Shown here one piece after another: positions 4,230-60,469 of a stretch of DNA of 64,000 nt. Under the pieces are notes generated by a model. The model made no database searches. It was not told the origin of the DNA and was given only the letters and a program-made list of their open reading frames with translations. The stretch's first letter is position 1, and every line of letters starts with the position of its first letter. The stretch comes from Blasia pusilla. Lineage: Eukaryota. The position numbers were made by a program, and so were the translations under genes. The stretch is from the NCBI GenBank assembly GCA_050084515.1, contig CM114271.1, forward strand, positions 45,694,001 through 45,758,000, written 5' to 3'.

Positions 4230-6304
4230 CATGCTTCCCAAAGTTGTATAAGAGTCTCTGAGAGTCTCACTTAAAAATTTTCGTAACCAAGTTGCCTCTC
4301 TGAGAGCTCTAGTTAGAGCCATGTACTCTACTTCAGTAGTGGATAGAGCAACAAATTTTTACTTCTTGCTTCCCCAGCATACAGTTGCGTGTCCTAACAA
4401 GAAACAAAAACCAGAGGTTGATGTTCGATCATCCTGATTACCTCCCCAATCAGCATCAGAGTAACCATACAATGGTTCTAGGTTGTTTTTCCTAGTGCAC
4501 ACAAGTCCTAAGTTTGTTGTCCCTTTTAGATATCTAAAAATCCTTTTTAGAGCACCCCAATGGGCTCAACGTGGTTCAACCATATATCTAGAAATCATAC
4601 TCACAGCAAAAGAAATGCTAGGCTAGTACAAACCATTGCCCATATGAGACTACCTCTTGACGTTTATAAGGTATCTTTCTCATGAAGCTTCTTTCTTCTT
4701 CATTCTCTAGAATCCTTTCTTAATAGCTTCTTCCCAGATTCTACTAGTGTTTCTCTGAGTTTTGGGTGACATTTTAAACTTTTCAAGTACATTGTTGACA
4801 TACCTACTTTGAGATAGTCTAATCCATCCTTCCTTTTGTTCCTAGTTACTTCCATTTGAAGGAAATGATGGATTTCTCCTAGATCTGTCATTCTAAACTC
4901 CTTTTCATTGAGTCTTTGACAAATATTAGCAATGGTGTACAATTACTAATCGATCAGCGTCATCTACGTATATAGGGCAAATTCAACAAAATATTCCTGA
5001 TCATTCGGGATGTAAAATTTGTGTCATTATCACATCTCGAAATCCTATTTTGATCAGAAATCTATCCATCATTTGATACCACAATCTTGATGACTATTTA
5101 AGTCCATAAATGGACTTGTGCGACCTACAAACTTGATCTTGGCAAGTAGGATTTGATAGCCCCTCCTGGCATCTCCATGTATACTTCCTCCTCAAGTATA
5201 CCATTCAAAAATGTTGTCTTTACATCCATCTTATGTACTTCAAGATCAAACTATGTTGCGGAGCAAGCATAACTTCGGATTGAAGTTTTTTACTCTGAGA
5301 TGAGAATGGCTCAGTGTAGTCCACACCATAAACTTGTGAGTAGCCTTTTGCTACCAATCTTGCTTTGTACCTTTCAATGCTCCCATGTGCCTTGTACTTT
5401 ATTTTGAAAACCCATTTTACATCCCACGGCCTTTCTACTGGTGGGAGTGAAGTGAATGACCAAGTGTTATTCAACCTCATGGATTCAAGCTCTTATTCCA
5501 TTGCATCCTTCAAAGAAGCGCTTGCTGCCCAGAGAGCTTCTTCATAGGTCTCGGGTTCTTCAATATTGTTATGCTTCTCTTGTTGACTCATTAACGCTTG
5601 AGTCAACTTCTCCATATCTGGAGTCCTTGCGTGTGATTCTTGATGTCTTTGCATCATATTTCTGCACTTGCCTTGAAACCCTTTCAGATCTTCTTGGTCT
5701 AGCACTCGCTTGTGTTGGAGTTTTGTTGTTGGACTCTATTTGAACAATCTGTGGCTCCTTTTGAACTTGTTCTCATGCAACATCAAGAAAACCACTCTCT
5801 GTTGGAATCTCACTAGCACTCTTACTAGTACTTGGAGTGCTCATACGTGATGTTAGTACATCTTTTCCTTCAGTGGTAGTCAATGCTGGAGTTGGTAAGG
5901 CTCCCACTAAACTCGTTCCCCAAGACTCCAGGAACTCAAACAAGGAATGGTCCTCCTCTTTACGCAAACCAACAAATGCCACTTTTCCCTCTTGGAATTT
6001 TACATCCCTAGAAGTGGTGATGGTTTTGTCAAATTTCTTTTGCAACATGTATCCTTTTCTTTGCTCTTCATAACCAAGAAGAATACATTTAGTTTTATGA
6101 TTTATGATTTTACATCTAGTTTTCTCCTCTGAGAAGAAGGAATTAGTGCAAAAGCTGTACACCAAAAAATTCTATTGTGACTAAGATCTGGAGGCTCTCT
6201 GTACCAAACCTCATATGGTGTCTTAACACCCTCCAGAGCCTTTTTTGGTGATCTGTTCTACAAATAGTTTGCTGTCACTATTGCTTCACCCCAAAAAGTT
6301 TTCG
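4230..6304 (-). mobile_element. Degenerate Ty1/Copia internal fragment (integrase end, RT, RNase H start)
   Basis: KTFWGEAIVTANYL, KCILLGYEEQRKGY, KWVFKIKYKAHGSIERYKARLVAKGYSQVYGVDY, MTDLGEIHHFL and GYSDADWGG. No LTRs recognised. Confidence 0.9.
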
Positions 6305-8345
6305 AGTGACAAGCCAATCTTCCGACGACCCTACAAGTACAATGACATGGAGAGGGTTTTGATTCTGAGTAGCAGCCAAGACTTGGTCGGAGCAGACTAG
6401 TGGAGATGTTGCATGGAGAGTATGCATCTGTCATTGTCATGCCCATCAAGAAGGATGTGCATGGAAACTGGACGGATAGGTGGATGTGTGGAGATTACCA
6501 ACCTATCAATCGATAGACAAAGTTCGATAGGTATGCCAAGCCTACCCCTAAGGAGATCTTTGATATGATTGGGCATACAAAGATCTTCAATTCATTGGAT
6601 TTGAGAGCCGGATACCATCGGCTACCTATCAGATTGGAGGGGCGAGGCGAAGACGGCATTTTGGGGCATTGATCCTCACAAGAAGGATTGATTGTGCCAC
6701 TGGTAGCTCTTACCATTCGGGTTAAAGAACGCCCCGGCTGAGTTTCAGAGGATCGTGGATAGGATCTTGGCATGTCTTGATTTTGCTAGATGTTACATTG
6801 ATGATGTCGTGAGGTTTTAGTGCCACGGTTGAGGAGCATGACGACATCTAAAGGAGGTGTTTTCGACGATTGCATTTACATGGGATGAAGCTACATCCAA
6901 ATAAGTGCAAGTTCTTCTACGACTAGATTGAGCACTTGGGTCATCGATATACCTGGGGGCCTTGGTATGCAGCAGATGAAGATAGAGGCTATTTCATATT
7001 TTCCACGCCCTACAGATGTGAGTCGAGTTTGTGCATTCATGGGATTGGAAAACTTCTATTGACGGTACGTCAAGGGTTTCTGTTTGATTGCACCGCTAAC
7101 CTTGCTAACCAAGGTGGATTAGGAGTGCACTTTGAGGGGGATGAGCAAGAGAGAGCATTTAATTTGCTCAAAAGATATATTGGCGTCTGTGCCCATATTT
7201 AGGGAGATTGATCGGTGGGCGTCATTTCGGTTGCATGCCAATTGGATCATGTTGGGGCTTGGAGTGTGCTCACCTAGCATGACGATGATGGTAGAGAGTT
7301 TGTGGTGGCTTACGCTAGTCAATCAAACAATGTTGGAGAGGCAAAGTATAGCTTGTATGAGGATGAGTGCTTGGCGGTGGTGTGGCGATCATAAATTTCA
7401 GTCTTATTTATTGAAGCCCCTTACCATCATTACCAATCATCAGCCACTTAAGTTGTTGATGGAGTCCGACATGCTTACAGGGAAGCTTGCAAGGTGGGCT
7501 CTTTTGTGCAGGAGTATAACTTCCAAGTGATGCATAGACCTAGGATGCTCAACTAGGATGCACAAAGTTTGAGCCGTAGCCCATGCTCGAGTCAGCGAGA
7601 TGCGATTGGAGCTTGTTGGCATGGTGAGAGTGATGAGGAGTTGATGCTAGGATGGCGGCGTCGCGCCCCTATTTGGGCATGTTGGCTATGAAGAGCCAAG
7701 TTGTTGAGACTTTGGTTGCGAGGTCTGATGGAGAGTCCTTAGATCCAGAGGCTGGTGAGGAGACGATAGGTGGCCGAGATATTCACGACGAGGGAGTAGT
7801 CTTTGAGTACTTACGTACTGGCATCTTCGCGAGCAGAGTGGGTGCTAGAGAGCAGGATCGGATCCTACAGCGGGCAGGCGGTTCGGTGGGAGGAACACAT
7901 GTGTTGCAAGTTTGGGAGGATGGTAGAGTGTGTGTAGTGCCTCATCCGCTGCGAGAGCACATTTGGTACATCATGCCCACGAGAGTTGGGTCATTTTGGA
8001 GTAAAAAGGACGTCTGACTTGCTCCACATATAATATTGGTGGCAAGGCATGGAGACGACATTCAACAGTTGGTTGTCGGATGCATGGTGTGTGATCGAGT
8101 CGGGCATCGTTCAATGCTCCGACTCACACTGCATCCACTTCCGATCATGGGTTTAGGTTATAGATGGAATTTGGATTTTGCAAGACCTTTACCTTTTACA
8201 TAGCGTCAAAGTTCTTATGTATTGGTGATGGTGAGCACTTCTCGAAAGTGGATAGAGTTGGTTGTGAGGATAGCATATGGCATGTGTGAGGCCACCTCTC
8301 ACTAGGGTTCTTAAGGGATGATGGATGTGTTCTAGATGTACATAG
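6300..8345 (+). mobile_element. Ty3/Gypsy pol fragment: RT, RNase H, integrase N-part, then after a deletion the PHD-finger C-terminus
   Basis: DKPIFRRPYKY, GEYASVIVMPIKKD..GNWTD..MCGDY, LDLRAGYH, YIDDV, TNHQPLK..LTGKLARWAL and HPLPIMGLGYRWNLDFA. 8270-8345 matches the PHD tail at 49770-49850. Confidence 0.9.
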
Positions 8346-8528
8346 AGTTGGTAATTCTAGATTTTGACTTGTATCTATTATACGGATGAAAAAAAAAAGG
8401 CGACTAACGATGGGGCCACTTGAGCTCCGAGGCCATATACTCTTAGCATCAGAGAGATGTATGTTATGGTAGGTATGGATAGATAGCTATCCTGGAGTTA
8501 GAGGGACCTAACCACCAACTAGGGAGGA

Positions 8529-9820
8529 TTGGAGATATTTTGGTACTTCTTTTCTTGTTGTTTTGATGCCATGAGTTAGCATGGGATCATGCGTGTTTGT
8601 GTGTATGTTTGTCGAAAATGATGTATGTTGTATAGCGATGTGTATGCATACCACAATTGTCACGACTTTTAGGATAGATCAAAGAGATCTGGTAGAGCGC
8701 CTTTGTGAGTAGAGGAGGACGGACTCATGAGATTGAGGATGATCTGCGAGGTTTCGGAAAACCTAAAAGAGCATGTTTTCCCTTCGTTTCGGCTCATTTG
8801 GACCCATATAGAGAAAGTTTATATTTTGGGTAAGTTTCTATGTTTGGTAGAGTTGACTTTCCACTTTGGGAAGTGGCCCTGACCCCTTCAACAGGTCAAG
8901 AGCCAAGGAGGTCACGACTTTTAGGATAGATCGGAGAGATGTGGTAGAGCGCCTTTGCAAGTAGAGGAGGATAGGCTCATGAGGTCGAGGATGACCTTTG
9001 AGGTCTGGAAAACCTAAGAGAGCATGTTTCCCCTTCGTTTCGGCTCATTGGGAGCCAGAGAAACCTACTATTTTGGGTAAGTTTCCATGTTTGGTAGAGT
9101 TGACTTTCTACTTTGGAAGTGGCTCTTGACCCGCTTCTAGTAGATCAAGAGCCAAGGACATGACTTTTGTGAGCATAGGTTACCGAAAGAGAGCTTGGGA
9201 GAGAGGGAAGGGTGTACCTCAAGGAGAGAGAGCTAGAGGATCATTCTCTTTTGTTGAACCTCTTGGCATGAGGCGGCGGAGCTATGGTTCCTGCCTTGTG
9301 AGTGTAACCAAGGTTGCTTATGGACAAAGTCCGTGGCGTGGATATGTCCATGTCCATGGACTTATGTCCGTCTTATGGAAGAACTTGTCTTTATGGGCCC
9401 CATCTTTCCTTTCTTTGTGCTTTCCCCTTGCCTTCAGTATTCCATACTCCCCATTTCTTCCTCCCTCCACCTCCACTCCCTCCTCCCTCATTGCTCCACT
9501 CATCCTTGACTTGCCTTCCATCATGCGATAAGTGTGGATCCCACTCTTAGAACCCATGTCCGTGGACATGTCGGGACTTACGCCTCCATGTTGCGTCCTA
9601 AGGAAGGACTTGTTCGCCGTTTTAGTGTAATCCAAGCCTTTCCTTAGGAGAGTGGATTTGGTTTGATATTAAGAGAGATTGGATCTACTTGATTTGATTG
9701 GAGATATTTTGGTTCTTATTGTCTCGTTGTTTGGATGTCATGAGTTGGCATGGGATCGTGTGTGTTTGTGTGTATGTTTGTAAACAACTATGTATGTTGT
9801 GTAGCAATGTATATGCATCG
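8529..9820 (+). repeat. Terminal repeat complex of the PHD-Gypsy: extra U5-like block (8529-8655) followed by the LTR (8658-~9820)
   Basis: The LTR starts TGTCACGAC. Its first ~250 bp is tandemly duplicated at ~8911-9160. The last ~125 bp (9698-9820) repeats 8529-8655. Homologous to 48807-49582 on the other strand. Confidence 0.8.
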
Positions 9821-10089
9821 AAAATTAACTCAAATTATGACTAAATTGGTTTAGTCACAAAATTTAGGTTTGTACAACTCACCTAATCATTTGCATATGA
9901 CTAAAGTGGTTATCAATACCCCTTAGAAAAGACGAGTAGTAATACCTATTTCACTTGCATAGTTATATTGAGTCATAAACATCGATTGATATGTTTAAAT
10001 GATTTCATACTCAAATGTTGTCGTGTTTTTTTATTGCTGTTGGGATATAATTCCTTACCCTAAGTTTAAATACCATTATTTTATTTGTG

Positions 10090-13000
10090 TTCTTTGGGTT
10101 GGGATGCCCCTTTGGGGGCATTTTTGGTATGAGTATGTTTCTGATTTTTTTGGCGCCTAAAGTTGAAAAACCTAGTTCGGGAGGTAGAAAAAGAGGTATG
10201 GAGAAAACCTTCTTCCAACCATTGGATGGTGATGAAAATTTGTAAAAACCTTTGCATTAAATATCTTCAAAACTTCAACGGTTTAGATCTGCCATTTAGC
10301 CCCCCATACTCATACCAAAAATAGAAAACCTTGTTTAGGGTTTACAATTTTAATTTGGTCTATGAGTGGTCATTTGAAGTCTTTATTTTCCCTTGTTTTT
10401 GTTTATGGAAAAGCTTTATGATTTTTGGACCCCTAGTTGAGGGGTGGAGGAGAAAAAGGGGATCAAGAGGACTTTCAATAGCATTCTTCAAAGTCGTTGT
10501 GTCATTTTGATGTTAACATGGAGTTATCCTTTCTTTCCACCATCTTATGGTGATGAAAAGTGGCCGGATCCTTTCCAAAAAATCTCTCCAAAACGTCAAT
10601 GATTCAAATCTGCTATTTAGCCCCCATACTCATACAAAAATGAAAGACCTTGTTTAGGAGTTACGATTATTAATTCCATGTATGTAGTCATTTGAAGTTT
10701 TTCCTTTTCCTACATTTCTGTCATTGGATTTTCCCTTTGGGAAATGTTTCTTGATTTTTGACCGGTTTCGAGGGTGGAGGAGAAAATGGGAGGTCAAGAT
10801 GGACGAAGAGGACTTACAAAGGATTGTTCCAAGTCATTGTGTCATTTTCATGTTAACATGAAGGTATCTTTTCTTCCCACCATTGGATGGTGATGAAAAT
10901 TGCACAAGCCTTTTCAATAAATCTCTACATAAATTAAACAATCAGATTCCATACATACTCATACAAAAAATGAAGAGCCTTGTTAAGGCTTTATCATTTT
11001 AATTCCATTTGTGAATGGTTATTTGAAGTTTTTCTTTTCCCTTGCATTCTTGTCATTGGAGTGCCACTCTTGGAAAATTTTCTTGATTCGAGGACCCCTT
11101 GTTTAGGTGGAGGGAGAAAATGGGGTCAAAATGGTTGAGGAGGGCTATCAACATAATTGTTCCTAGTCCTTGTCTCATTTTGATGTTAACATGGACATCT
11201 TTTTCTTCCAACCATTGGATAGTAATGCAAATTGGCGAGAGCCTTTCCATTAAATCTCTTGACCTTCAACGCTCAGATCGCCATTTAGCCCCCATGCTCA
11301 TACCAAAATTGGAAGACCTTATTTAGTGGTTATTTTTCTAATTCCATCCGTGAGCGGTCATTTGTAGTTTTTCTTTTCCCTTGTGTTTGTGTCATCAAAG
11401 TGCACCTATGGGAAAAAAATTTGGTTTTAGTTCCCTGGTTGAGGGTGGAGGGAGAAAAAGGGGGCTCAAGAAGGATGAGAAGGACTTTCAATTGCATTCT
11501 TCCCAATCGTTGTGTCATTCTCAAGTTTACATGGAATATTTTTTTCTATTGGGAGCATGACGAGAAGTGCATGCTCCGACAAGGTTTCATGATTTATGGG
11601 CCACCAGAAGAAGAGGTCAAGAAAGAAGAAGAGGAGTGTTATAGGTGTAAAGTTCTAAGTCTCCATTGAATTTTCTGGTCTTATCCACGCACCCAAACCT
11701 CCCACCGTTGGATGGACATGGAACACAGAGGGATTTTTAATTCCTTCTAAGGGTGGTCATTTGGAGATTTTCTATGATGCGGAAGTGCATGTTCCAACAA
11801 GGTTTCATGATTTATGGGCTAGCGGAAGAAGAGTGGAGCAAAAATGTCGAAGAAAGAGGAAGATGAATGATGTAGGAGTAAGGTTCCATATCTCCATTGA
11901 ATTTTACTTGTCTTATTCATGCACACCTCCCACCGTTGGATGGTCATGAAACATGATGGATGTGGGGTTGGCAATGCCCTCTTGCACATGGACGGTGTAG
12001 ATCTTGAATATGATTCTCCATACTCGTTAAAATTCCAAAATCTCATGTAGGGTTTTTGATTTTAATTCCTTCTATGGGTGGTCATTTGGAGATTTTCTAT
12101 CACACGGAAGTGCATTTTCCAACAAGGTTTCATGATTTATGGGCCAGGGGAAGAAGAGGGGGGCAAGAAATGTCGAAGAAGAGGAACATGAGTGATGTAA
12201 GAGTAAAGGTTCAAGTCTCCTTTGAATTTTACTCATCTTACCCATGTACATGGAGCTCCACCGTTGGATGGACGTGAAACACAAGGGATGTGGCTTTGGC
12301 AATGCCCTCTTGCCCTTGACGGTGTGGATCTTGGATATCATTCTCCATACTCACTTAAAAATTTGGGAACCTCACTTAGGTTTTTCATTTTTAATTCCTT
12401 GTATGGGTGGTTATTGAGATTTTGTATGACGTGATGCATATTCCAACAAAGTTTCATGATTTATCCCGAGAGAGAAGAAGATTGGGGCCAAATGTCGAAG
12501 AAAGAGGAAAATGAATGATGTAGGAATGAGGTTCCAAGTCTTCCTTGAATTTTACTCCTCTTATTCACGCACCTAGAGTTCCCACCTTTGGATGGACATG
12601 AAACACAAGGGATGTGGGGTTGGCAATGCCCTCTTGCCTTTGGACGGTGTGGACCTTGAATATGATTCTCCATACTCGATTAAAAATTTTGAAGCCTCAT
12701 TTTGGGTTTTATTTTTAATTCCTTCTATGGGAATTTTAAAAAAACCCGAAATGTCATTTGAGATTTTCTTTTTATGTTGGGAGCACGACATGAAGTGCAT
12801 ATTCAAAAAATTTCATGATTTATGGCCTGCAAAGAAGAGGTGGCCATAAAATGTCGAAGAAAGAGGAAGATGAAAAATGTAGGAGTAAAGGTCCAAGTCT
12901 CCTTTCAAATTTTACTGTCTTACCCCGTGCATCTGAGCTCCACCCTTGGATGCACGTGAAATAAGAGGGATGTGGGTTTGCCAATGCCCTCTTGCCCTTG

Positions 13001-13409
13001 GAGGGTGTGGAGCTTGAATATCATTCTTCAGTACTCAATTAAAAATTTTGAAACCTCACTTAGGGTTTTATTTTTAATTCCTTCTATGGGTGGTCATTTG
13101 GAGATTTTGTATGATGCGGAAGTGTATGTTCCATCAAGGTTTCAAGATTTATGGGCTAGCGTAAGAAGAGGGAGTCAAAATGTCGAAGAAAGAGGAAGAT
13201 GAATGATGTAGGAGTAAAGGTCCAAGTCTCCTTTGAATTTCCTTTGGTCTTATCCATGTATCCGGAGCTCCCATCTTGGATGGACGTGAAACAAGAGGAT
13301 ATGGGTTTGCCAATGCCCTATTGCCCTTGGAGGGTATGGAGCTTGAACATCATTCTCCATACTTAGTTTGGAAACCTCACTTAGGGTTTTTTTATTTTTA
13401 ATTCCTTCT
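10090..13409. repeat. Tandem satellite with ~325-345 bp units, left arm
   Basis: Landmark gggtggtcatttggagatttt recurs near 11751, 12077 and 13088, with variants near 12404 and 12753. Diverged units lie further left, with ttagccccca.ctcata at ~10296, 10617 and 11286. Confidence 0.9.
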
Positions 13410-16400
13410 TATTGAAGATTGAGTTAAAGTCAACGCTCATGAGGCACCTGAACTGCAACATTTGCTACTCACACAAAGTAGGGAAGCTTAATCGTGGTTA
13501 GTCCGGGTTAAGCGCGCGATTATCTTCACTAGGTTAGTTAATCACAATTAGTTTAACTTTCGAGACTATGGTTAAGATTAGGATTAGGGTTGCTTGTACA
13601 TACCCTATATAATTGAGAAGGGGCCAGCCTCCATTCATTCTCTCATTGCAAATGTGGTTCTCCATGATGGTGTGTGAGTGCGAGAACCGTTTACCATCAG
13701 ATATGCTTCTTTAGTAGTTTTCCACATGGTACTAGAGCGATAGAAGAACATCACTTGAAATTCTTGGTGTTTGAGGAGATAAGAGATGCAAGAGAAGGCA
13801 CAATTTCAGTTTGGGAGAAGAAATTTTGTTCACAACCGATGGTGCAAATTTCAAACGGAGCTTTGACGGTGATAAAACTCTAGAGACATTTTTAAGGCTT
13901 TCTGGTCGATTTAGCCATCTCGGTCCCAACGGCTGCAATGATGCCAATATCTAGTTATAATAATCTTGTAGATCTCGTCGAGAGCTACCAACGCATCCAA
14001 AATTGCTCAATTCGACATTCGAGCTCTGCGCAGTAGCAATTTCAGTGTAGGAAAGTGCAAGTAGTTAAGAAAAGTTGTGCAATTTGCTCTCTACAGGCCA
14101 ATTTCGACTAGTTCTTTCATACAGTTGATCAATTTTGGAAAATTTCAGGTCGATTTCTTGTAGGAATGATCTATGCTTCAATTGGAGCAATAAAGAGCTT
14201 GAAATTATATTTTTTTTGAGTGAAATCGTTCGTCATGGAATATTCCTAAGTAGCAATCACATGTGAGAAGCTAGATAAGCAAAATTATAATGTCTGGAAG
14301 TTTCGCATAAAACAATCTCTCATGGGTCAAGAACTATGGGAGCTTGTCACAGGTGATGAGGCCAAGCCAGAAGGTGACTCAACAGACTTGAATGTTTGCG
14401 CTTGGAACAAACGCACAAGGCAAGTAATCCACTACATTTCAATAACGATCAATTCGCCAATGATAGGTCGCATTCAAGATGTTGATATTCCGAAGGAGGC
14501 CTGGGATGTATTGGAAAAGCTGTTCCAGACATCTACAAAGGCCAGAACGCTTCAATTGAAATAGCAATTGAACAAAGTGAGGAAAGAATCGCAGAGCATC
14601 AATGATTATATTTTGAGTATCAAACATATTGTTTATCAATTGAATAGCATTGGAATTACAGTAGAAGATGATGATCTGATCTTGTTCACTCTTCAAGGTC
14701 TTCCCAAGGATTACAAATCCTTCGAGACCTCTATCTCTGTGAGAGAGAAGTATCCAACCTTTAAAGAGTTAGTCCCACTATTAATCAATGAAGAGATGCG
14801 CCTAGTAGGCGGCGGTTGCTAAATCTAATCTACAAGAGAGTGCGTTATTTGCAGGTTATGGATCAAACAGAGGCAAGGGTTGTGGTAGAAACTTCCGTGG
14901 TCATGCTGGATATCAAGCATATGGAAGAAGAGGCACTCAATATAACGTCACTCAATCAACTACTAACCACTACTAGACACAATCACAAGGTAGTGATAGT
15001 GGAAATCGTTGGAATCCAGGTTAGCAATAGAGGGTTCCTAGATCTTGCAATTATTGTCGGATAAAGGATCACTATGCAAAGTTTTGCTTCAAAAGAAGGA
15101 GATATGAGAATAGGAGCCTTACAAAGAACAAAACTATGTGAAACAACAATACCAAGAGCAGTTCCAAGAACAACAACATTCACAAACGGAGCATCTCTTG
15201 GTCATGACTCATCATATGGAAGCAATGGTCAAGAAAGACTTGACAGCAGATTGGTACATTGACTCTAGTGCATCAAATCATATGACCTCACAAGCTAAAT
15301 AGTTCAGTAGTTTAGGGCCGGTGAAAGATCCTGCAATTGTGCTCATAGGAGATGACACTCAACATCATATCACGCACACTGGTAAAGTTCCAATAACATC
15401 ATATGGTCTTTGTGCTCTTGGAAATATTCTCTATATTCCTACCATTGCAAGAAATCTAATCTCTGTAAGACAAATAGTAGAATAGGGTTATCGAGTGAAG
15501 TTTAACGCAGATGGTTGTTTCATTGAAACAATGGATGATCAGACTACGATAGCCAAAGGAACTAGATCTGGCAGAATGTTCAAATTAGATGTTTCTATGT
15601 TAGAGATTCAAACAGCAATGTATGGTGAAACTGGCCAACAAGTCACAAATCTAAATGTGTGGCATAAAAGAATTGGACATATGAATCTTCAAAGATTACA
15701 GAGTCTTTCATCATCCAATATAGTAATAGGACTCCCTAAATTAGCAAGTCCTACTGCGTTAGAGGTGTGTCTTACTTGCCAATTTGGAAAAAAAAACTAG
15801 ATTTTCTTTTCCAAAGCAAGGTAGAAGAGCATCTAGGATATTGGAGTTGATCCACATTGATGTGTGGACAGCATCATAACATAGCCTTAGTAGTTGCCAA
15901 TACTTTGTTTCATTTATTGATGACTTTTCTAGGTATATATGGATATACATTCTGAAAGCTAAGTCAGATGTTTTCTGAATATGCCAAACATTCAGAGTTC
16001 TAGTAGAGAAGCAGACTAGAGAACATATTCTGAAATTGCGTTATGATAGAGGAGGAGAGTATCTTTCAATAGAGTTTGATGACTATTTATGTCAGAATAA
16101 CATCCAATGTCAAGTGACTTGCCGTTACACTCCATAACAAAATGGAGTGGCTGAGAGGAAGAATCGACATATTGTTGAAGCGGCACGAGCTATGTTGAAT
16201 TAGAAGAACATGCCTAAGGTGTATTGGGTAGAGGCTGTAGCATATGTAGTCTTCTTGATCAACCGAACTCCAACAGCAAGAGTTCATGATAAAACTCCAT
16301 TCAAAGTCTTCACAAGAAGTAAACCTGATTTTTCATTCTTGAAAGTATTTGGTTGTATTTGTTATGCTCATGTTTCTTCTGAGAGACGTCAGAAATTAGA

Positions 16401-21599: not shown

Positions 21600-21720
21600 C
21601 GCTTTTTAGGATTTGGTACTAGAGTCCAGGTTTTATTTTCGTGGAAAGACGCAATTTTAACCTCCGTAGCAGTTTGCCATTCATGAACATCTAGTCTAGA
21701 GAGGGAATTTGTTGTAGTGA
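21600..21720 (-). mobile_element. Small Copia pol remnant (pre-RT region)
   Basis: EWQTATEVKIASFHENKTWTLVP within ORF 21506..21907 resembles Copia W..AM..E..SL..N.TW.LV. Confidence 0.5.
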
Positions 21721-38989: not shown

Positions 38990-39625
<636 letters not shown>

Positions 39626-48700: not shown

Positions 48701-48806
48701 CCTTTTGAGAGACGTAAAAAATTAGACCCCGAGTCTGAAAGATGTATCTTCATTGGCTATGCTGATGGAACTAAGGGAAATAAGTGCTACATTCCATCCT
48801 CTAGGC
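45748..48806 (+). mobile_element. Second copy of the same Copia family, 3'-truncated within integrase
   Basis: LTR 45748-46058, PBS tgatatcagagc, gag, WYMDSGASNHMT and integrase. Colinear with 13410-16480. Stops at attccatcctctaggc, where a Gypsy LTR begins. Confidence 0.93.
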
Positions 48807-50280: not shown

Positions 50281-53189
50281 GAGCACTTGCATTTTTGTCC
50301 CATTGTCATCCACCACCCTCAAGGGCATTCCATCTCTCCTCTTTGGCCTTTCCCAAAGATATTTATCTTGTAGTAGATAGCCATACGTCTTATGTCGAAT
50401 CTCCTTGAAGAACTTATCTGTCCATCCACCTTCTCTCTGCAGAGTGCTTAAATAGCGCCTAATTTCTTTCAACTTGCCCTCATACAAATTCTCTTTGGAG
50501 GCTAGAGCATTCTTTATGCCACCCTGTTCTTGCGATGACACTTGCCATACATATGCATCATCCTCATCTATCTCAACTGCCTCCATATTTTCTTCTTGAC
50601 TAAATCTAGCTCTAGGCAACATGTCAGCTACTGAGTTCTCTTTTCCAGCTATATGCCTCAATTGTGGATTTAAGGACCTAATGTAGGCTATCCAACGTAA
50701 CATGGCTATATCTGGAGTTGCACAATTTGCAATCATTCCTAACAGAGGTAGACAATCAACTTCATGCAACATATAGGCTCCCATAAGATACTCCTTCTCA
50801 ACTTTCATCGCAGTCACAACTTCCCAAAGCTCCCTCTTTACCTGAGGGTACCTCCTTTTTTGTTCCGTGAGTGTACGAACTCCAAACCTTGTCGCAAATC
50901 TTCTTCCTTCTACATTATCGTGCCCAACTGCCCACCCGATAGCAATGGGGCTAGTGTCTACTGTGATGATAATAGGTCTTCCACATTCGTAGCTCATTTG
51001 TCATAGAACCGGTGGCAACTTCAATGCCTCCTTTGACTACATCATTGCTGCTCTTTGCCTCTTCTCCCAAGTGAACTTCTTCTTCTTTCTCAACAACTCA
51101 TACAAAGGATCAGATATGTGGCCAAAATGAGGAATCAACACCTCATAAAATACATAAGCTCCTAAAAACCTTCTCACTTCGGTGACATTTTTGTATCCTC
51201 GTATCCTCCCAATGACATCAACTTTTGCTCGATTTGGTTTTCGGCCAAACTCTCCACAAAGATGACCCACTACCACAATCTGAGGAATCCCAAAGCTACA
51301 CTTTTCTCTAAAAAGAGTAAGATTGACCTCTTCTAGTCTTGTTAGGATCATATCCACATCACAAATATGATCAGACACAAACTTTCTACATCCATCTTTC
51401 ACAACCCTCTCAATCCTATCTTCTATTGCACATCCCTTTATAAGAATATCATCTACAAAAGGAATAGTTTTCTCAGGAATGAACTCTCTCAAGATCTTAT
51501 TCATTGCACCCTTCATGTGAGCGATAGAATTTGTTGCTCCTTGAGATAATGTGCACATTCTTACAAGCCCAAGTGGATTACGCATACTCAACTATGTGCA
51601 ATTGTGAAATTTACCATCGCTGCCACCACACTTGTGTCTACACAACCAATTTCTTGTGTAGTAAAAGAGAAGGCCTTACCATATCTCCTTAACATCTCCC
51701 GAAAGCTTTTTCTTTCAATTTATGTGAGAAACTCACCCCCTCCAATTTGCAGACAATCTAGCATACATCCCACTAATGAACTCTTCATCTAATAGAACAC
51801 CCTCATATTTTAACAAACCTTTCTTCTTTTTTTCTTCATAAAACGTCTTTTCTTTTCATTCATTTCTTTCATCATTTGGAATCTACTAGACCACAAAGGA
51901 AAACATTGAGAAAACCCACACCTAAACATGTATGATTCTTCCCCCTCTACTAGCGGAATGCTCTTTCTTTTCTCTGCACCTCCATATTCCCGCTCTACAA
52001 GAGTACTAACTAAAAATCCGAAAACTTTTTCTCTACCTTCATAGGACCATCTCTCAACTTCTCTCTATTCCTTTCATAACCTACTTGTACAGTAAGGAAT
52101 TGAACTGAACTCATTCCATCGACTTCACGATATTTAATATAATGAGACCCATCATCCATGACTTTGGTCTCCATTCTAGATGCTGTGATATAAGGTTGCC
52201 CAATAATCATAGGATAAGCAGCTCCATTCTGAACAAAATAATTTTGCTCAATCAACACATCTCCCATACGAGTTTTGACAGTTGGACAAACACCGTAGAG
52301 TTCACTTTTTGGGTTGTTAGCTGCATGTAGTACCCATCCATGCCTTGTATCAATTGGCCACATCCCTTTGTCGTATACACTTTGTGACATAATGTTGATC
52401 TCCGAACCATGATCAACGAGAGCCAAAACTGACTCTTGGAGAGAGCCAAGTCGAGTTGTAGCCTTCGTCGTTGCACACGCCCAATATGACCGAGAATAGT
52501 GTCCACCATTGTGCCTTTCTTCACCTTGTTCTGTCAAGGCTTCTCCTACTCTTGCCTCTTCTCCTTGTAAGTCAAGCTTTTGTCCAAAAACTTAGCAAAG
52601 CTCTTCATCTTCTTCTTCTGTAATGTCAGTATCCAATGCCCTCACCATCACCATATCTACAGTCATCTACCTTTTCCTTTTGATCACATTTATGATCAAC
52701 TCATGAAAGTCACGTTTGGCTATGCCCAAGACTTCCCTTAGAGAAAACTCTATTTTTGCATCCAAAACCTCTCCTCAAGAATCTCCTTCAAATTTGTGCT
52801 TGTCTATATATCAGACTGCAGCTTGTATGTAGGAGTCTTACCCTGGTCTTCTAAAAACACCTCAATTCATTTTCCTTCATCCATGCTTTTTTGACATTAG
52901 AATCCCTCATAGATTTAGGTGTGAAAGGTCCTTCTTCTCTTGATGGCTGCGCCTCGGGTTTCCCTTTCTTTCTTGCGGTCCTCGCTCTTCTTGCAACTTC
53001 CTCAGGATCAACACCATCATTGTCGCGTCTCCTCTTCTCCTCCACACTAGCATCTTGCCAGCTCACATGTTTCTCTTGTGCTAGGTATGCTTTAAAACAC
53101 CCAACTTCCATTAGATCATCCCATCCAGTCAGATGATGGATAGTCTATGCCCCTCGTATAATTAATTCTAGAGGAAATTGTAATGATTC
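50280..53189 (-). mobile_element. 3' part of Gypsy element 'G': gag end, protease, RT (partly deleted), RNase H
   Basis: TGWDDLMEVGCFKAYL, protease LALVDHGSEINIMS, RT FVDDILIKG and RNase H TVDTSPIAIGW...KRELW...VDCLPL. Confidence 0.9.
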
Positions 53190-56100
53190 CACTAGTACAA
53201 AAACTCCCTCTAAATGACTTAGAAAAATGACTAGATGTTACTTAAACCGGGCATGTGTGACTAAGTAATTACTTAACCAGACTCTAGTAATAAAAATTAC
53301 TCCTATTCGTATAAGTTGTTACTAAAACCGAAGGTAGTCAAATCTAAGTCTCTTTTTTGTTACTCAACATAGTCACTAAATATGACTTGACCTAGTCAAT
53401 TTTTTATGACTAGACAAGTCATAAAGAATGACTTTTCTAGTCATAAAGAATGATTGGACGAGTAATAAAGAATGTCTAGAAGAGTCATTAGGACTGACAA
53501 GACGATTCATTAAGAATAACTAGATTCATTAAGAATTGACTAGACGAGTCATTAATAATGACTAGGCGAGTCATAAAGAGTGACTTCTCACAATAATAAA
53601 TAATGACTTCATGCGTCATAAAAGAATAACTAAGAGTCATTAAAATGACTTGTCCATGTCATTTACAATCCTATTCACTAAAAATATCCAAATAACAACT
53701 ATACCAATCATTATGTATGACATATCGCATTATTGCTGACAAAAATATGTACATGAAATTGGCATTTTTGTCCATTTTGTATCCATGAATATGAATTACT
53801 CCTTCATACCTATCCTCCCTACATCTATCACTACTTCTCTTACATCCATGCAATGGAGATGCCATTATGTATCTATTGTACAGTCCTAATGCTACCAGCA
53901 TTGTGTTAAAACATACGAGCACATTACTCATATACCAACCCATCCATGTTGTAGCATCTGATCATATCACTTTTTCACAGTAAAAAAATCCTTATCTGTT
54001 GAAAGATACATCTAGCAAATGTTTCTTACATCCAATTTTGGCCATAAGTCCAAAGCTACAAAGTGTATCCATACATCCTGAAATGGAATATTTTCTTACG
54101 TCAAAAGAATGCCTAGTGAATTATAGTGAAAGATGGTCATCAATGGAAGAACACAAAATCTACTTCTCAGTGCAAACTCCCCCTCTAATATTCTCAAAAT
54201 TGAGACATCGAAATCCAAGTACATCTCAATTGTCACACTCAAAACTGAAACACAAACATCAAGTTCCTCTACTTATGAGCACAAAAGTTACAAGTATATG
54301 GAGATCGCCACACTCAAGAGGGATGTCAAAGGGAAGGTTTACTCAAAAATTATACACACAAAGCGAAGGTGCCCCTATTTCTGAGAAGGCATAACAAGAT
54401 GAGATGGCCATAACACTACACTATCAATGGCATCTCCAACATAAATCTATGGTGGATCGTCAGCTATATTTGGAAATGGCAATACATTTTTCTTCTTGCA
54501 GACCTCTCTCAAATGGAGAATACAATGCCCATCTGGAATGTCACGTTCTTGGAAAGTAGAACAACCATCATGCAAGTTGCCATAACCTACAACCACAGAG
54601 GGGTTCTCACGTGATATTAATTGCTGCAACGGAGGCACAACAGATTTCAACACCGGCTTGGTAGCTTCTCGGGTCCTCTTCCTAAGTGTCGCTCTTCTCA
54701 CCACCATTGGCTTTTGCAGAAGATCCAAATGATCCTATTCCATGGGTCCACCACTCCCCAACATCCTTGCACTATCTTCATTCTCCTCTGAAAATACCGT
54801 GGCCTCCAAATTGCATCTCCGCGATGTCCTCACTTAGCGTTTGCATACAATGGCCGGGGCCTCATCTGTGGTCTCTACAATCACAATCAACAAGAAACTT
54901 TAACTACCCTTTCAAACAGATCATGATTTTCAGCAACTTCAATGTAAAATGCACAAAATCACTCTAAACTCACATACCTAAACTCAAAGGGTCACCCACA
55001 AACACAGTAGCATTAACCTCTCTTGTGCCTCACTTTTTCTTTGGACCAGTTGGTGCAATCCCAAAAATTGTATCTAGTCCTCTTACTGTATGAACACCCT
55101 TGGCAACTTGTGGAAGGACTAGAGGCGAAGGCACAATAGTGATAAGCTCCGGAGAGGGTGCACTCTCCCTTGAAGGTGGTCCGGTGATTGGGTGAGGAGA
55201 GGATGCACTCAACGGCATAGAGGCAAGTGCTCCACTAGGAGCAGGGTCTCGATCATGAACTCCACGAGGAGAGGATACAACTCTTGGATTTTCCGATCTC
55301 TCCTTGGAACCCCTCATGTCCTCATGGTCCCTTCTCAAGCTCATGGAAATTAATTCCATCAACTTTGTGAAGTTCTCTTGTTGATTAGCAACAACAGTCT
55401 TTATGCTTGCCTCTAGCACGTCCAAGCTGCTGGAGAATGCATCCATGCGATCAATTATGTAAGTCATAGACTCGGGAAACAACTCCTCCATAGACTTTAA
55501 TCGGGCAGAGATCTCTGTTAGCTCAGATGTTCCTGGCACCTGAAATACAAGACTTGGATCTTAGTCTATATCAGTAGGCTTGTACTAGAAATACACTAGA
55601 TTCACTTCTACTCTAAAGCAACCAGATGCAAATACCTGCTTTGACACTCTACTTATACCATAACTCCTTTGGTTCTTTGCCTCCTCATGCACCTATGCCT
55701 TAGTAGGGGTTTTCCCCTTCTCTTTTCTCTACAACACATGTTACACCAACCAAGTTCAGTCTTCCAGACACCAATTGCCAAACTATATGCATGGTGGTAA
55801 TAGAAATTAAAGATGGGTCCTTCAATATTATTCATACCAAGTGCTTTGCAATTGGTGCATTCCCTTTTCTTCCTCGTTAGGTTTGATTGGTCACACTGCC
55901 GTGCTTTGGACATCTTCTCCCTCTTTGTCTTTGCACTCTCGCTCATGGAGTGCGTAAGTAATCTTCCCCATTGGTTGGGGTCTACATAAGGTGGTGGGGC
56001 CACTTTCTTGCCTCCTCCAGCTTCTTTCCATGTCTGACGCAATCTAAATCTCTCCGTCTTGAATATTCATTGTGCATATTCCTCCAAACATGGAACAGCC

Positions 56101-59100
56101 ACTCCATTGTTTCCAACATACTCCCATCTAGCAAAAATATCACTCAACACCGAATATTCCAATACCTTGAGTGTTGGTCTGAGAAATTCACAATGGAGAT
56201 GTCAAGCCATCGCAACACCTCGACTCTAAAATCTGCATGCCACCTATTCTTTCCTTCTGAAGTTGTGGTGATCCAACCAGAGTTGTTCACACCCACTTTT
56301 CCGACCTTCACCCCCTCGCCTTGCACACTTCTCTCAGTCAGTGAGTTTGGTGTGTATGTTGTTCCTACGCTTGCCCGTCGCAAGCCTAGAGTCGTAGAGT
56401 TTGCTGCACACATGAATATCTTCAGTCAAGACTACTGCCCACTTTGCAAATCTTTATGCCTACAAACAGACTCTATGCATCGATGTCAGGTCACTTAGTA
56501 ATTAGTAAAGACACGAGGAAGAAATTCTCCAAATAGGGATGATACTTCTCTATATATATGTGACTTGCTATTACCTGTAGCCTTTGTCATTTGCACTCCT
56601 TGAGTGGGTCCTAGCCCCAACCATTGAGGTTGTCCATACATTTTTTGAGTGCTATTATTGAGTCCATAAAGGTATTGGCTACTTCCAAACCAATCTTGAC
56701 TATTTGGCACCGCATGATAGGGTCCCTCGGTGTAGTTGGAGAATCCATCTTGCATAGAGTCTACACATGACATATATGTCGGTGTAGTATAGACACATCA
56801 CACAACCATCATCTAACGATGTATAATCAAAGAGAAATTTGAGATTGCAAATCGATACATTCGTACTATTCCACCCTTGCCTCGTTGGATAATATCCATT
56901 GTATAACGAACTTGGCTTGGAGTTCTATGCATAGGGTCCATCTCTACCGCCTTGAGACATGCTTGCCTGTCCCTCCCCACTATATTGTACACCCACTTGC
57001 TCTTTGAGAGGAATACAAATTTCAGGTACACGTCCGGGTGCAGCATCCCTTGCCCAAGTAGCTTGCCCCCCAACTGTCCCTTTCTGCCAATGCAATGCAA
57101 CCCACTAATTAGAGACAATTTCTTTCAAATGCCACTAACCTTGAAACACAATTGTAGACACACGTCCTGTCTAATTGAAATGGAGAAATTACCTGCTTCT
57201 TCTTTCCCCCAATAGTTGATGGACAAGGCTCCTTAGGAGCCGGAAGCTCATCTGAGCCTGATTGATCCTCTTCACCTAAGTCTCCAACAAACTCAGGATC
57301 ACAAGTGGAAGATTCTTCACCTCCAATGTAGCATCAATGTCACCAAAAGATTCTTCCATCGCTGCCAATACCTTTTCAAGCAATTGAGAGCTCCTCCGCT
57401 TCGGTCCAAGATGGAGAGGCTCCCTCTTTGCAGGTCGTGGGGCACGTACTTGCTTAGAACAAGCCTCCGCGCTGCACATGAGGACAAGTTTTTCAAGAAT
57501 ATGAATTATGCACAATGCTTCTGATTTATTCATAAAGGCCCAGACCTAAGTGCTCAATATGTCAAAGCTTACAATTCAACGCCTCTTTGTTTGAGTTCTT
57601 CCGCCAATTCCTTAAGGTATCTGTTCACATAAGCCGCGCGGGCCTCCACATTAAGTTCATCTACAATATGGATGTTGCCTTCCCATCTTTCTACCCTCAT
57701 CAATGGTACATACTGACTACCGACAACTGTGACCGGTTGAATCGTTCTATTGGGAGCTTCAAAAGCCCTATGTCCATCTAAACTGAACTCCAAAGTATTA
57801 CATGATACCCTATGATTCCTCGCCTACTTGTAGCACACTACTCGCCATTCGGGCGATTCTTCCATGTCTAGGAAGAAAGCTTGTTCAACCTGACTAGGGA
57901 ATACAAAAGGTTCAGACCATTCAGGTTGCATTTGCCTGAAGTTTGCTAGTAAGAATCCATCACTATCACGCTTCATTGTAGCCCTAGCCCCACGCCAATC
58001 TGGTCGCACCTAAGTCCCTTTCATGAGAATGATAGGATTGGATGTGTTCCCGTAGTCCAATTTCCAAAGGTCAGTTAGCTCTCCTATGTATCCCATTTGC
58101 ATCCATCCTCTATCTTGGTGATTGCTCATTTGCTCGAATAAAAATATCAACCCTGAATCATATGTGACAAAATGATCATCACTTTGATCTACCACACGGA
58201 AGTGGTTTCCATAGGCTTGCATTCTCTTGTAAGCTAAGATGGCCATTCGAGGTGGAGCAGACAGAAGGTAGACATCCCACTCCATATTTGGGTGTAGTGC
58301 TGAATGCTCTTGGATTGCCAATCGAATCCATTCAGTGAATGGTGGTAAGCCCCCCGCACCACCCCCAATATGTGCATTTTTCTCCATATTATATTTCATG
58401 TAGAGGTCATGCCATTATTAGTCGACTGGTATCTGGTGAGCTACGACATAAAAAAAATAAGGAAGCCAAATAAATGCAACAACACATAGGCTTGAGTCAT
58501 TCAACCCCTTACTTACCTCACCATGGTTGCATTACTCTAGTGTTTTGCAACACATATTCATGAGCCATCTACCAAATATTTTTCGGCAATTACAATGGGG
58601 AACCTCTGCCTTGAAGAACTTCACCTAACGTTCCCTCATCTTCCTCCGCTTGCCATATCCTGGCCTTCACATGTTCAAACCCCGCTATATACTCTATCAA
58701 ATATCCCAAGGTCTCGTGCGAAATGTAACCCATTGCCATGCTGGCCTCAGGCCTTTATCTTGTCAAGACGTGGTCTTTCAAGACTTTCATAAAATGCTCC
58801 AGTGGGAACATCCACCTCGTATAAATAGGCCCGTACTATCCAAGCTCTTCCACAACATGGATAACGAGATGACTCATGACATCAAAGAAGGCGGGAGGAA
58901 AATGGATCTCCAAATCGCAAAACAATTCTGCCACATCATCTTTGAGCTTGAGAAAGCTTGCTGGATCAAAGACCTTCACACATATATGACCAAACACCTT
59001 GCACAATTGCATGATTGCATTACGAATCGGCTTCTGCATCAATCCCCTTAAGCATACAGGCAGAATCTATTGCATAAGCACATGATAATCGTGTGTCTTC

Positions 59101-60467
59101 ATACTACCGAGTTTCTTGTTTTTTACATGCTTTTTAAAGGCAACTGCATAGCCGGTCGGAGCTCTCTAAGATTGAAGCCTCGAAAGAATTTTTTCCCACT
59201 CTATGTCTGTGCAAACATAAGGTGCCTGGTATTTCAATACCACATTGGGTATGGTCTCATCATCCTTCAACCACAACTGAGAACGTATTCTCCTCTCTTG
59301 GAGATCCAATCGCACCGTTGTTGTGTCCTTCTCCCCAGAAAGGAACCTCAATAGGCTCTCGCATACATTTTTCTCAATATGCATTACGTCTAGATTGTGT
59401 TTGCTAGGGTCGAACCCCTGTTAAACCACATATGACAACCATGAGTACAACTGGATGATACACGAGCCTCAATTCTTGAAAGCATCTAGTGTGGCAAATA
59501 ATAAACGTTGCGTAAGAGCAGATGGGTGACATAGATTACCCTCCAGTAGTCCAACTCCACATCAAGTATGCTCTTCCGTTTCACACCATATCTCTGTCTC
59601 GGATCCCGTTGAGCATTTGGAGCTTCTGTATCTTGGCATTCTAGTCCCCCCTCTAAACCCCCACCTGTGCCTCTTTCCATGTCGTACATGGTCTTTTGGT
59701 GTCCCCAATCGAGAATCTGCTCTTTAGTGACTCGTGGAGGTGGACCACGAAGCTCTCGGGCATTGTTGAATTGAACTATCTATGACGTCCTATATCTGTA
59801 AGGATGATCTAATGGGAGGAAACGTCGATGTCGAGTGTATTTCATGCTCCTCAAAGGTTTGGAATGCTCACGAGTGAAATTGGGGCCACATGCAGTACAA
59901 GCCAAATACCCCTTTGTTGCTTGACTAGAAATCATGTCGTGGGCTGGATAATCTCCCAAAGTCAATACCAATTGGGCTTGTAGCCTAAATGGGTTTGGTC
60001 TCCCAATCTGTTGTACCACATCATGGATCCAAATGCCTTTGTACCACAAGCGCTTCAACTCATCCACAAGAGGAGCTATCCAAACGTCTATATTCCTAGA
60101 AAGAGCAGATTGTGGGCCCGGGATTAGCAAAACCAATAAGACAAAAAACTTCTTAGTATTCAACCACGGAGGGAGGTTGTAATTTAGCATGGTTACAAGC
60201 CAGCAAGAATATACATTGTTCTTGTCTCCGAATGGATTGACTCCATCGGTCGAGAGGCCAAGTCTCACGTTCCTTGTCTCTCTTGCAAACTCTGGCCATC
60301 TCCGGTTGATGAATCTCCAATGTTCTGAATCTCCGATGTGCCGCTGCAGGCCATCGATACTCTTATTCTCGGATGTCCAAGTCATCAACTTTGAAATTTT
60401 TGGGCTCCTGTACATCCATTTCAATCTAGGAATGATTTCAAAATGTCGAAGTACCTTGGTAGGCTGC
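53190..60467 (-). mobile_element. CACTA (En/Spm) transposon, 3' portion
   Basis: TIR CACTAGTACAAAA at 53190-53202. Dense ~20-bp ATGACT/AGTCAT subterminal repeats to ~53670. Transposase genes read toward this end. Confidence 0.92.
54420..57533 (-). pseudogene. Second CACTA gene (TnpA/Ptta-like), spliced and decayed
   Basis: Downstream of the transposase inside the TIR. PPPYVDPNQWGRLLTHSMSESAKTKREKMSKAR resembles the plant En/Spm Transposase_24 region. Exon structure not resolved. Confidence 0.55.
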
Positions 60468-60469
60468 AT
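57560..60469 (-). pseudogene. CACTA transposase (Transposase_21/TnpD-like with DUF4218/DUF4216-like regions), N-terminus missing
   Basis: KVLRHFEIIPRL, RNVRLGLSTDGVNPF, NYNLPPW, LLIPGP, GDYPA, MHIEKNVCES, FPPAFFDVMSHLVIH and PFVFPSQVEQAFF. Introns and premature stops. Confidence 0.92.

What the first reader, a model, noticed from the sequence alone, without database searches (positions are those of the whole stretch)
6300..60468. One ~54-kb inversion explains three broken transposons
Seen: (a) The MTase-Gypsy stops on the minus strand at ggg atc cgt atc cat (GIRIH, 60468). A Gypsy RT starts abruptly on the plus strand at ttt tcg agt gac aag cca atc ttc cga cga ccc tac (~6299, xSSDKPIFRRPY). 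Joined, these read as a continuous pre-RT peptide. (b) Both CACTA TIRs (2919 and 53190) point the same way. (c) Gypsy G has gag on plus ending at 2918 and the rest on minus starting at 53189. Inference: reversing ~6300-60467 fixes all three together. The other restored junction (Copia integrase to CACTA transposase) still needs a deletion. The RLK gene and its pseudogene lie inside the inverted block.
Basis: partly seen in the sequence, partly recalled or inferred. Interest (0 to 1): 0.82.

Follow-up and report, generated by a model that had tools for sequence, protein, structure and literature searches.

The report
54-kb inversion splitting nested transposons
A 54-kb stretch of this plant chromosome has been flipped end to end, cutting one jumping gene exactly between two codons and turning round one end of another, which is an ordinary kind of chromosome rearrangement that happens to be unusually easy to read here.

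Summary
A Gypsy element carrying a DNMT3-like methyltransferase ends on the minus strand at 60468 (…GIRIH). It resumes on the plus strand at 6299 (FSSDKPIF…). The one relative that spans this point, Marchantia protein P0135, has these two ends at residues 741 and 742, with no gap. The only two good CACTA terminal repeats (2919, 53190) both lie on the plus strand. Their 3-bp target duplications (GAA and TTC) match only if one side is flipped. The host element, Gypsy G, continues from 2918 (+) to 53189 (−) within about 2 residues and in frame. The other restored junction lacks the 5' half of a Copia and the first 212-385 residues (by relative) of the CACTA transposase, and neither is elsewhere in the window. 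The breakpoints have no N runs and no inverted homology. A 147-base contig from a public short-read run bridges the 6300 junction. The 60468 junction was not tested with reads. Best reading: a real inversion made by end joining, with several kb lost at one breakpoint. This is a new instance of a known kind and of modest interest.

The parts
1902..2918 (+). Gypsy G, gag part of the polyprotein, ending at the CACTA insertion site
   Evidence: tblastn of Riccia polyproteins: P0018 residues 1-272 align to 2037-2828, and P0052/P0056/P0060 align to 1902/1905-2828/2858. A zinc knuckle is seen in the translation.
2916..2918 (.). Left copy of the 3-bp target-site duplication (GAA). It is a complete in-frame codon of Gypsy G.
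   Evidence: Sequence. The frame was worked out from the HSP start at 2037.
2919..3300 (+). CACTA 5' end: terminal repeat CACTAGTAGAAAA (2919-2931) and the subterminal region with AATGACT-type repeats. The inner limit against the Copia 3' end is not resolved.
   Evidence: Against 53190-53789 it shares 32 8-mers, versus 12.1 +/- 4.6 in controls; 0 of 500 controls reach 32.
4263..6305 (-). Copia nested in the CACTA, 5'-truncated. Integrase C-terminus starts at 6305/6302, RVT_2 spans 5471-4760, and pol runs to about 4263. Its 3' LTR lies somewhere in about 3300-4260.
   Evidence: Pfam RVT_2 E=2.1e-23 and SH3_retrovirus. In tblastn of 7 Copia relatives, homology starts at their residues about 595-632.
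6299..6305 (.). Junction J1 (Copia | Gypsy-DNMT3 3' half). Bases TTTT(CGA) fit both partners.
   Evidence: Contig record 8 of run X1 covers 6196-6342.
6299..8266 (+). Gypsy-DNMT3 element, 3' half: RT, RNase H, integrase zinc domain and the start of the integrase core. It has many stops and frameshifts and is cut off at about 8266 by another repeat.
   Evidence: Pfam RVT_1, RT_RNaseH and Integrase_H2C2. P0135 residues 741-1190 align to 6296-7909.
6300..60467 (.). The inverted block (54,168 bp, give or take a few bases)
   Evidence: Follows from the two junctions. There is no N in the window.
29703..36145 (+). Receptor-like kinase gene inside the block (malectin-like domain, kinase exons). A partial duplicate lies at 40220-43605.
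   Evidence: Malectin_like E=1.5e-27, Pkinase E=3.4e-18, duplicate at 78-84% identity.
49775..53189 (-). Gypsy G, rest of the polyprotein (protease, RT, RNase H, PHD finger), starting at the CACTA insertion site
   Evidence: P0018 residues 303-396 align to 53180-52887, 430-639 to 52774-52115, and 982-1418 to 51588-50278. Pfam RVT_1, RT_RNaseH and PHD.
53187..53189 (.). Right copy of the target-site duplication (TTC, the reverse complement of GAA). It is a complete in-frame codon of Gypsy G on the minus strand.
   Evidence: Sequence. The frame was worked out from the HSP start at 53180.
53190..60472 (-). CACTA 3' part: terminal repeat CACTAGTACAAAA (53190-53202, written on +) and a transposase on the minus strand from 60472/60466 down to about 57836, lacking its N-terminal part
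   Evidence: Transposase_21 E=1.3e-58 and DUF4218 E=1.5e-23. All 10 of 10 transposase relatives start aligning at their residues 212-385.
60468..60472 (.). Junction J2 (CACTA transposase | Gypsy-DNMT3 5' half). Bases ATGGA fit both partners.
60468..63842 (-). Gypsy-DNMT3 element, 5' half: gag 63842-63099, protease region 62261-61548, DNMT3-like domain 61519-60947 (with an internal deletion), and the pre-RT motif 60605-60468. Its 5' LTR would lie at or beyond the window's end.
   Evidence: 19 relatives from liverworts and Sphagnum carry PF00145. tblastn. DNMT3A/3B are the best solved relatives of P0121.

Best explanation
The block from about 6300 to 60467 is a real chromosomal inversion made by breakage and end joining.

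Before the event, Gypsy G carried a CACTA transposon inserted at a GAA site, and that CACTA carried a Copia. About 45 kb to the right sat a Gypsy-DNMT3 element on the minus strand.

The DNA broke inside the Copia integrase, inside the CACTA transposase gene, and between two codons of the Gypsy-DNMT3 pol. The piece between the first two breaks (Copia 5' half plus CACTA 5' interior, at least about 3 kb) was lost. A single break there with long resection would give the same result. The 54-kb piece between the second and third breaks was rejoined in reverse.

What is shown: the two junctions, the continuity of three elements after a mental flip, and the absence of the lost pieces from the window.

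What is inferred: that the loss and the flip were one event. A pre-existing deletion junction would otherwise have had to be hit exactly by a later break. It is also inferred that joining used 2-7 bases of microhomology at each junction.
For: The Gypsy-DNMT3 halves abut. P0135 residues 696-743 align to 60605-60462 (-) and residues 741-773 align to 6296-6394 (+). In blastp-short of the two window fragments against 139 proteins, only P0135 was hit by both, and the projected gap was 0. Both fragments end or start on a codon boundary.

CACTA: only the 2 terminal-repeat matches with at most 1 mismatch exist, and both are on the plus strand. The flanks are GAA at 2916-18 and TTC at 53187-89. Subterminal 8-mers are shared beyond all 500 controls.

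Gypsy G: in P0018, residue about 302 projects to 2918 and residue about 300 projects to 53189. Both target-duplication codons are in frame.

Lost pieces: the N-termini of 10 of 10 transposase relatives and of 7 of 7 Copia relatives find no matching partner in the window.

There are no N runs. No inverted homology links the breakpoints: the best match is 13 nt, E=0.049, and lies away from the junctions.

Reads: an X1 contig of 147 letters covers 6196-6342 with 2 other letters. Depth jumps at the junction from 19.4/84.8/9.5 to 938/8559/620 in X1/X2/X3.
Against: Only 1 of the 19 DNMT-Gypsy relatives reaches across the split point, and it is a partial gene model.

Junction J2 was not checked with reads. 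At J1, only one bridging contig appears among the 24 pieces listed out of 6028, and X1 could be related to the sample that was assembled.

One restored junction is not clean, so more than one event cannot be excluded.

No relative or second accession with the un-inverted order was available. Polarity therefore rests on the argument that transposons insert as intact units.

The microhomology claim rests on relatives at 35-70% identity, not on copies of the same families.
Confidence: 0.85

Rival explanations
1. Assembly error: a 54-kb contig piece was placed in the wrong orientation, so both junctions are artefacts.
For: The finding comes from a single assembly. The region is dense in repeats, and the Gypsy-DNMT3 family is high-copy.
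Against: There is no N in the window. A 147-letter short-read contig from run X1 crosses J1, with 104 letters on the left and 43 on the right. A simple orientation error would restore both junctions cleanly, yet one of them lacks several kb that are nowhere in the window. The junction also falls exactly between two codons of one element.
Confidence: 0.05
2. Coincidence: there are two separate truncated Gypsy-DNMT3 copies, two separate one-ended CACTA copies and two separate Gypsy G fragments, with no inversion.
For: The Gypsy-DNMT3 family has many copies at 95% identity or more (depth), so fragments are common in this genome.
Against: Three independent coincidences are required. First, the fragment ends fall at adjacent residues 741/742 of a 1190-residue relative. 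Second, a 3-bp duplication matches, with a 1 in 64 chance. Third, Gypsy G is continuous within about 2 residues of an 1805-residue relative and stays in frame. All three must also fit the same two breakpoints.
Confidence: 0.02
3. Several events: an inversion plus an independent deletion, or a more complex rearrangement whose other products lie outside the window.
For: The Copia/CACTA junction is not restored by the flip alone. The window shows other truncated elements: Gypsy-DNMT3 is cut at about 8266, and a Copia 5' half ends at 48806.
Against: Copia abuts the Gypsy 3' half directly, and the transposase abuts the Gypsy 5' half directly, while the Gypsy itself lost no codon. A later deletion at either junction would probably also have removed Gypsy sequence. 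An earlier deletion would have had to be hit exactly at its junction.
Confidence: 0.07
4. Inversion by recombination between inverted repeats, or by aberrant (reversed-ends) transposition of the CACTA element.
For: Both are known routes to inversions in plants. The Ac/Ds rearrangement system appeared in the listing (abstract only seen).
Against: No inverted homology links the 2-kb stretches around the two breakpoints or the outer flanks. Both CACTA termini still sit next to their original target-duplication flanks, and the breakpoints lie about 3.4 kb and 7.3 kb inside the element ends.
Confidence: 0.01

Closest known systems
Polymorphic or fixed chromosomal inversions with end-joined breakpoints in plant genomes (for example those mapped in the barley pan-genome, PMC7759462, passages read; and the synteny-defined inversions in maize and sorghum, PMC2773423, passages read)
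   Same: A segment is reversed in place. The breakpoints lie in repeat-rich DNA and lack long inverted repeats. Junction-spanning PCR is the natural assay.
   Different: This one is small (54 kb). It is inferred from one sequence alone, by re-pairing three split transposons rather than by comparing genomes. One breakpoint carries a loss of several kb, while the other break lost no codon.
CACTA (En/Spm) transposons
   Same: CACTA... terminal repeats of 13 bases, a 3-bp target duplication, subterminal repeats, and a Transposase_21 plus DUF4218 protein.
   Different: Here the element is a passive marker. Its two ends now point the same way, and its transposase gene has lost the part corresponding to the first 212-385 residues of relatives.
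Gypsy-DNMT3 retrotransposons (KnitGypsy-Dnmt3 of Klebsormidium nitens, PMC5890265, passages read)
   Same: A Gypsy pol that includes a DNMT3-like cytosine methyltransferase domain. The best solved relatives of P0121 are DNMT3A/3B, E about 1e-10.
   Different: The relatives found here come from liverworts and Sphagnum. That paper does not mention Marchantia (0 occurrences). The window's copy is decayed, with an internal deletion in the DNMT domain. Whether the family descends from the Klebsormidium one was not tested.

Membership tests
Chromosomal inversion (breakage and end joining) | Two junctions, each joining sequences that are in opposite relative orientation | tested here: met
   J1 joins Copia (-) to Gypsy RT (+) at 6299-6305. 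J2 joins CACTA transposase (-) to the Gypsy pre-RT part (-) at 60468-72, with the Gypsy halves on opposite strands.
Chromosomal inversion (breakage and end joining) | The outer flank of one junction continues into the inner flank of the other | tested here: met
   Residues 741/742 of P0135, gap 0. The reciprocal pair (Copia and CACTA) belongs to one nested element but lacks several kb.
Chromosomal inversion (breakage and end joining) | Independent markers spanning a breakpoint become collinear after the flip | tested here: met
   CACTA target duplication GAA/TTC and same-strand terminal repeats. Gypsy G is continuous in P0018.
Chromosomal inversion (breakage and end joining) | Both junctions present in raw sequencing data | tested here: inconclusive
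   J1 is bridged by one X1 contig.
Chromosomal inversion (breakage and end joining) | The un-inverted order exists in a relative or another accession | not testable with these tools
   No genome is held for this window.
Inversion by recombination between inverted repeats | Homologous inverted repeats at both breakpoints | tested here: not met
   The best inverted match between 5300-7300 and 59468-61468 is 13 nt, E=0.049, and is not at the junctions.
Transposase-made inversion (alternative transposition) | A breakpoint at a transposon terminus, with a new target duplication | tested here: not met
   Both terminal repeats keep their original flanks, and the breakpoints are internal.
CACTA / En-Spm superfamily | CACTA terminal repeats, 3-bp target duplication, Transposase_21 | tested here: met
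Gypsy-DNMT3 retrotransposons | A DNMT3-type C5 methyltransferase domain inside a Gypsy pol | tested here: met
   PF00145 is on record for 18 of 19 relatives. P0135 carries PF00145 together with RVT_1 and RNase H. DNMT3A/3B are the best solved matches. Order in the window: protease, DNMT, RT. Catalytic competence of the window's copy was not assessed. It is decayed.

The most novel reading that the evidence does not exclude
The flip and the loss of several kb were one three-break event joined through 2-7 bases of microhomology at both junctions, a small one-step complex rearrangement. The inversion still segregates in the species. It would then hold a malectin-type receptor kinase gene and its partial duplicate in a 54-kb block that cannot recombine with the standard arrangement.
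Probability: 0.15. Interest if true: 0.45.

Novelty: new member of a known kind. Interest (0 to 1): 0.3.

Why it matters
The case shows that nested transposons can act as built-in markers. A single sequence, with no second genome, was enough to recover an inversion, place its breakpoints to within a few bases, set its polarity and reveal an accompanying deletion.

For this genome it gives two ready PCR targets (6300 and 60468) to ask whether the arrangement is fixed or polymorphic. It also flags a receptor-kinase locus that may sit in a block of suppressed recombination.

The event itself, an end-joined inversion in repeat-rich DNA, is ordinary biology.

Tried and rejected
- **Own genome:** asked for it so that other family copies and the un-inverted order could be examined, but none is held.
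- **Gypsy G as a stand-in:** tested whether it could replace the Gypsy-DNMT3 family. Its ORFs match the other element only in a shared dispersed repeat (8266-9815), not in RT, so it cannot serve.
- **Missing Copia half:** checked whether the Copia 5' half at 45748-48806 is the missing piece. It is not. It overlaps the broken Copia by about 87 residues of P0273 (its residues up to 709, against a start at 622) and belongs to the family of the full-length Copia at 13410-18712.
- **Properly oriented CACTA end:** the three 2-mismatch hits on the minus strand are at chance level. Two lie inside the Copia RT, and the one at 24580 is followed by CAA, not GAA.
- **Copia alignments past 6305:** two relatives (P0283, P0285) align as far as 6386, but those extra 28 columns show almost no identities.
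- **LTRs:** looked for LTRs of Gypsy G and of the broken Copia by sensitive self-comparison and found none.
- **Literature on the method:** two searches for the split-transposon way of inferring inversions gave nothing specific.
- **Earlier notes of this scan:** none for this genome. One note on a diatom Gypsy with a dead methyltransferase fold did not bear on this finding.
Full report
**What is in the sequence**

The window has no N. Its left end reads, on the plus strand:
- the tail of a chromodomain Gypsy integrase (1 to about 800);
- a gag with a zinc knuckle (about 1902-2918);
- a CACTA terminal repeat, CACTAGTAGAAAA, at 2919.

On the minus strand a Copia follows. Its RVT_2 spans 5471-4760 (E=2.1e-23), and its integrase C-terminus starts abruptly at (S)KTFWGEA, 6305/6302.

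From 6299 the plus strand carries a decayed Gypsy pol that starts abruptly at FSSDKPIFRRPY. RT, RNase H and the integrase zinc domain follow, up to about 8266.

At the right end the minus strand carries three things:
- a CACTA transposase (Transposase_21 E=1.3e-58 at 60355-59707; DUF4218 at 58982-58655) that starts abruptly at (SM)QPTKVLRHF, 60472/60466;
- upstream of it, a Gypsy gag, protease and methyltransferase that ends with ...FAFSMQDLGTMKCLGIRIH at 60468;
- further left, a second CACTA repeat, CACTAGTACAAAA, on the plus strand at 53190. It is preceded by the protease, RT, RNase H and PHD finger of a Gypsy on the minus strand, from 53189 down to about 49775.

**Test 1: the split Gypsy**

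A search with the methyltransferase region found 19 relatives, named ones from Marchantia, Calypogeia and Sphagnum. PF00145 is on record for 18 of the 19. Only one, P0135 (Marchantia, 1190 residues, with PF00145, RVT_1 and RNase H), reaches across the split point.

In tblastn its residues 696-743 align to 60605-60462 on the minus strand, and residues 741-773 align to 6296-6394 on the plus strand. Further pieces continue to 7909.

P0135 reads GPGIRIELASDTPIFHRPYRYSEMERDLI. One end of the window reads CLGIRIH, and the other reads FSSDKPIFRRPYKYNDMERVLI.

I searched the two window fragments separately against 139 Gypsy proteins. The left fragment hit 3, the right fragment hit 1, and only P0135 was hit by both. 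The projected last and first residues are 741 and 742, a gap of 0. Both fragments end or start on a codon boundary of the frame in use.

**Test 2: the CACTA ends**

The terminal-repeat pattern has 5 matches at up to 2 mismatches, against 2.05 expected by chance. Only the two at 2919 and 53190 have at most 1 mismatch, and both are on the plus strand.

The three bases outside them are GAA (2916-18) and TTC (53187-89). These are the same target duplication only if one side is reversed.

The two subterminal regions share 32 8-mers built around AATGACT. Controls give 12.1 +/- 4.6, and 0 of 500 controls reach 32.

**Test 3: the host Gypsy G**

One search listed 120 relatives. I laid the 14 that are 1500 residues or longer on the window and printed the best four. 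In all four, gag lies on the plus strand and the rest on the minus strand.

For the closest relative, P0018 (Riccia, 1805 residues):
- residues 1-272 align to 2037-2828;
- residues 303-396 align to 53180-52887.

By projection, residue about 302 falls at 2918 and residue about 300 at 53189. The two copies of the duplicated GAA are complete in-frame codons on both sides.

**The other junction**

After a mental flip, the Copia (5'-truncated) faces the CACTA transposase (5'-truncated).
- All 10 of 10 transposase relatives laid (of the 120 listed) start aligning at their residues 212-385. None finds its N-terminus anywhere in the window.
- All 7 of 7 Copia relatives laid (of the 150 listed) start true homology at residues about 595-632 of about 1310-1380.
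- Their N-terminal parts hit only two other Copia copies, at 13410-18712 and 45748-48806. Those belong to a different family, and the second overlaps the broken Copia rather than completing it.

So at least about 3 kb is absent: the Copia 5' LTR, gag, protease and most of the integrase, plus the CACTA 5' interior. This size is my estimate from residue counts.

**Mechanism**

The 2-kb stretches around the two breakpoints share no inverted homology. The best match is 13 nt, E=0.049, away from the junctions. Recombination between inverted repeats is therefore rejected.

Both CACTA termini keep their original flanks, so transposase-made inversion is rejected as well.

The Gypsy lost no codon, and each of its ends is joined directly to Copia or to the transposase. 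A deletion that came later would probably have eaten into the Gypsy. A deletion that came earlier would have had to be hit exactly at its junction. I therefore infer one event, either with three breaks or with two breaks and long resection at one of them.

Bases 6299-6302 (perhaps up to 6305) and 60468-60472 fit both partners when judged by relatives. That would mean 2-7 bases of microhomology. This rests on relatives at only 35-70% identity and is an inference.

**Is it an assembly error?**

I laid four public runs of the same species label on 4800-7800. In run X1 a 147-letter contig (depth 5.3) covers 6196-6342 with 2 other letters, so it has more than 31 letters on each side of the junction. 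It is the only bridging piece among the 24 pieces listed of 6028. X3's nearest listed piece ends at 6290.

Summed depth jumps at the junction from 19.4/84.8/9.5 to 938/8559/620 in X1/X2/X3. The junction therefore separates a low-copy repeat from a high-copy repeat.

X1 may be related to the assembled sample, though it differs from the window at several fully supported positions.

**Comparison and verdict**

This is a standard end-joined inversion. Polymorphic inversions are mapped routinely in plants (PMC7759462 and PMC2773423, passages read). What stands out is that it can be read from a single sequence.

Novelty is a new member of a known kind, and interest is 0.3.

Two literature searches for the split-transposon approach gave nothing specific. 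I make no claim that the approach is new.

Noticed in passing
window 60468-63842 (-) and 6299-8266 (+): The split Gypsy carries a DNMT3-like cytosine methyltransferase domain between protease and RT. Named relatives come from Marchantia, Calypogeia and Sphagnum, and the best solved matches are DNMT3A/3B. The family is high-copy in the species' reads. The 2018 paper on Gypsy-Dnmt3 in Klebsormidium does not mention Marchantia (passages read).
   Followed up: partly
window about 61020 (-): The window's methyltransferase domain lacks about 146-182 residues that relatives have between the two aligned pieces (for example P0125 residues 859 to 1005). This is an internal deletion in this copy.
   Followed up: no
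window 49775-49910 (-): Gypsy G has a PHD finger (E=4.5e-8) near the C-terminus of its pol, and no integrase core was detected between RNase H and the PHD finger.
   Followed up: no
window 8266-9312, 21873-22470, 39004-39625, 48803-49849: A dispersed repeat occurs in four copies (76-88% identity). In Gypsy G it begins inside the PHD-finger codons. It truncates the integrase of the Gypsy-DNMT3 element at about 8266.
   Followed up: partly
window 10625-13409 and 18713-20081: A satellite with a unit of about 325-334 bp is interrupted by a full-length Copia at 13410-18712. The Copia has roughly 305-bp LTRs at 85% identity and a 5-bp target duplication, CTTCT. A second copy, 5' half only, lies at 45748-48806.
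   Followed up: partly
window 29703-36145 (+) and 40220-43605 (+): A receptor-like kinase with a malectin-like ectodomain, and a partial duplicate of its 3' part at 78-84% identity.
   Followed up: partly
window 39148-39289: A perfect 6-bp tandem repeat inside one copy of the dispersed repeat. It gives a spurious weak hit to a low-complexity Pfam family.
   Followed up: no
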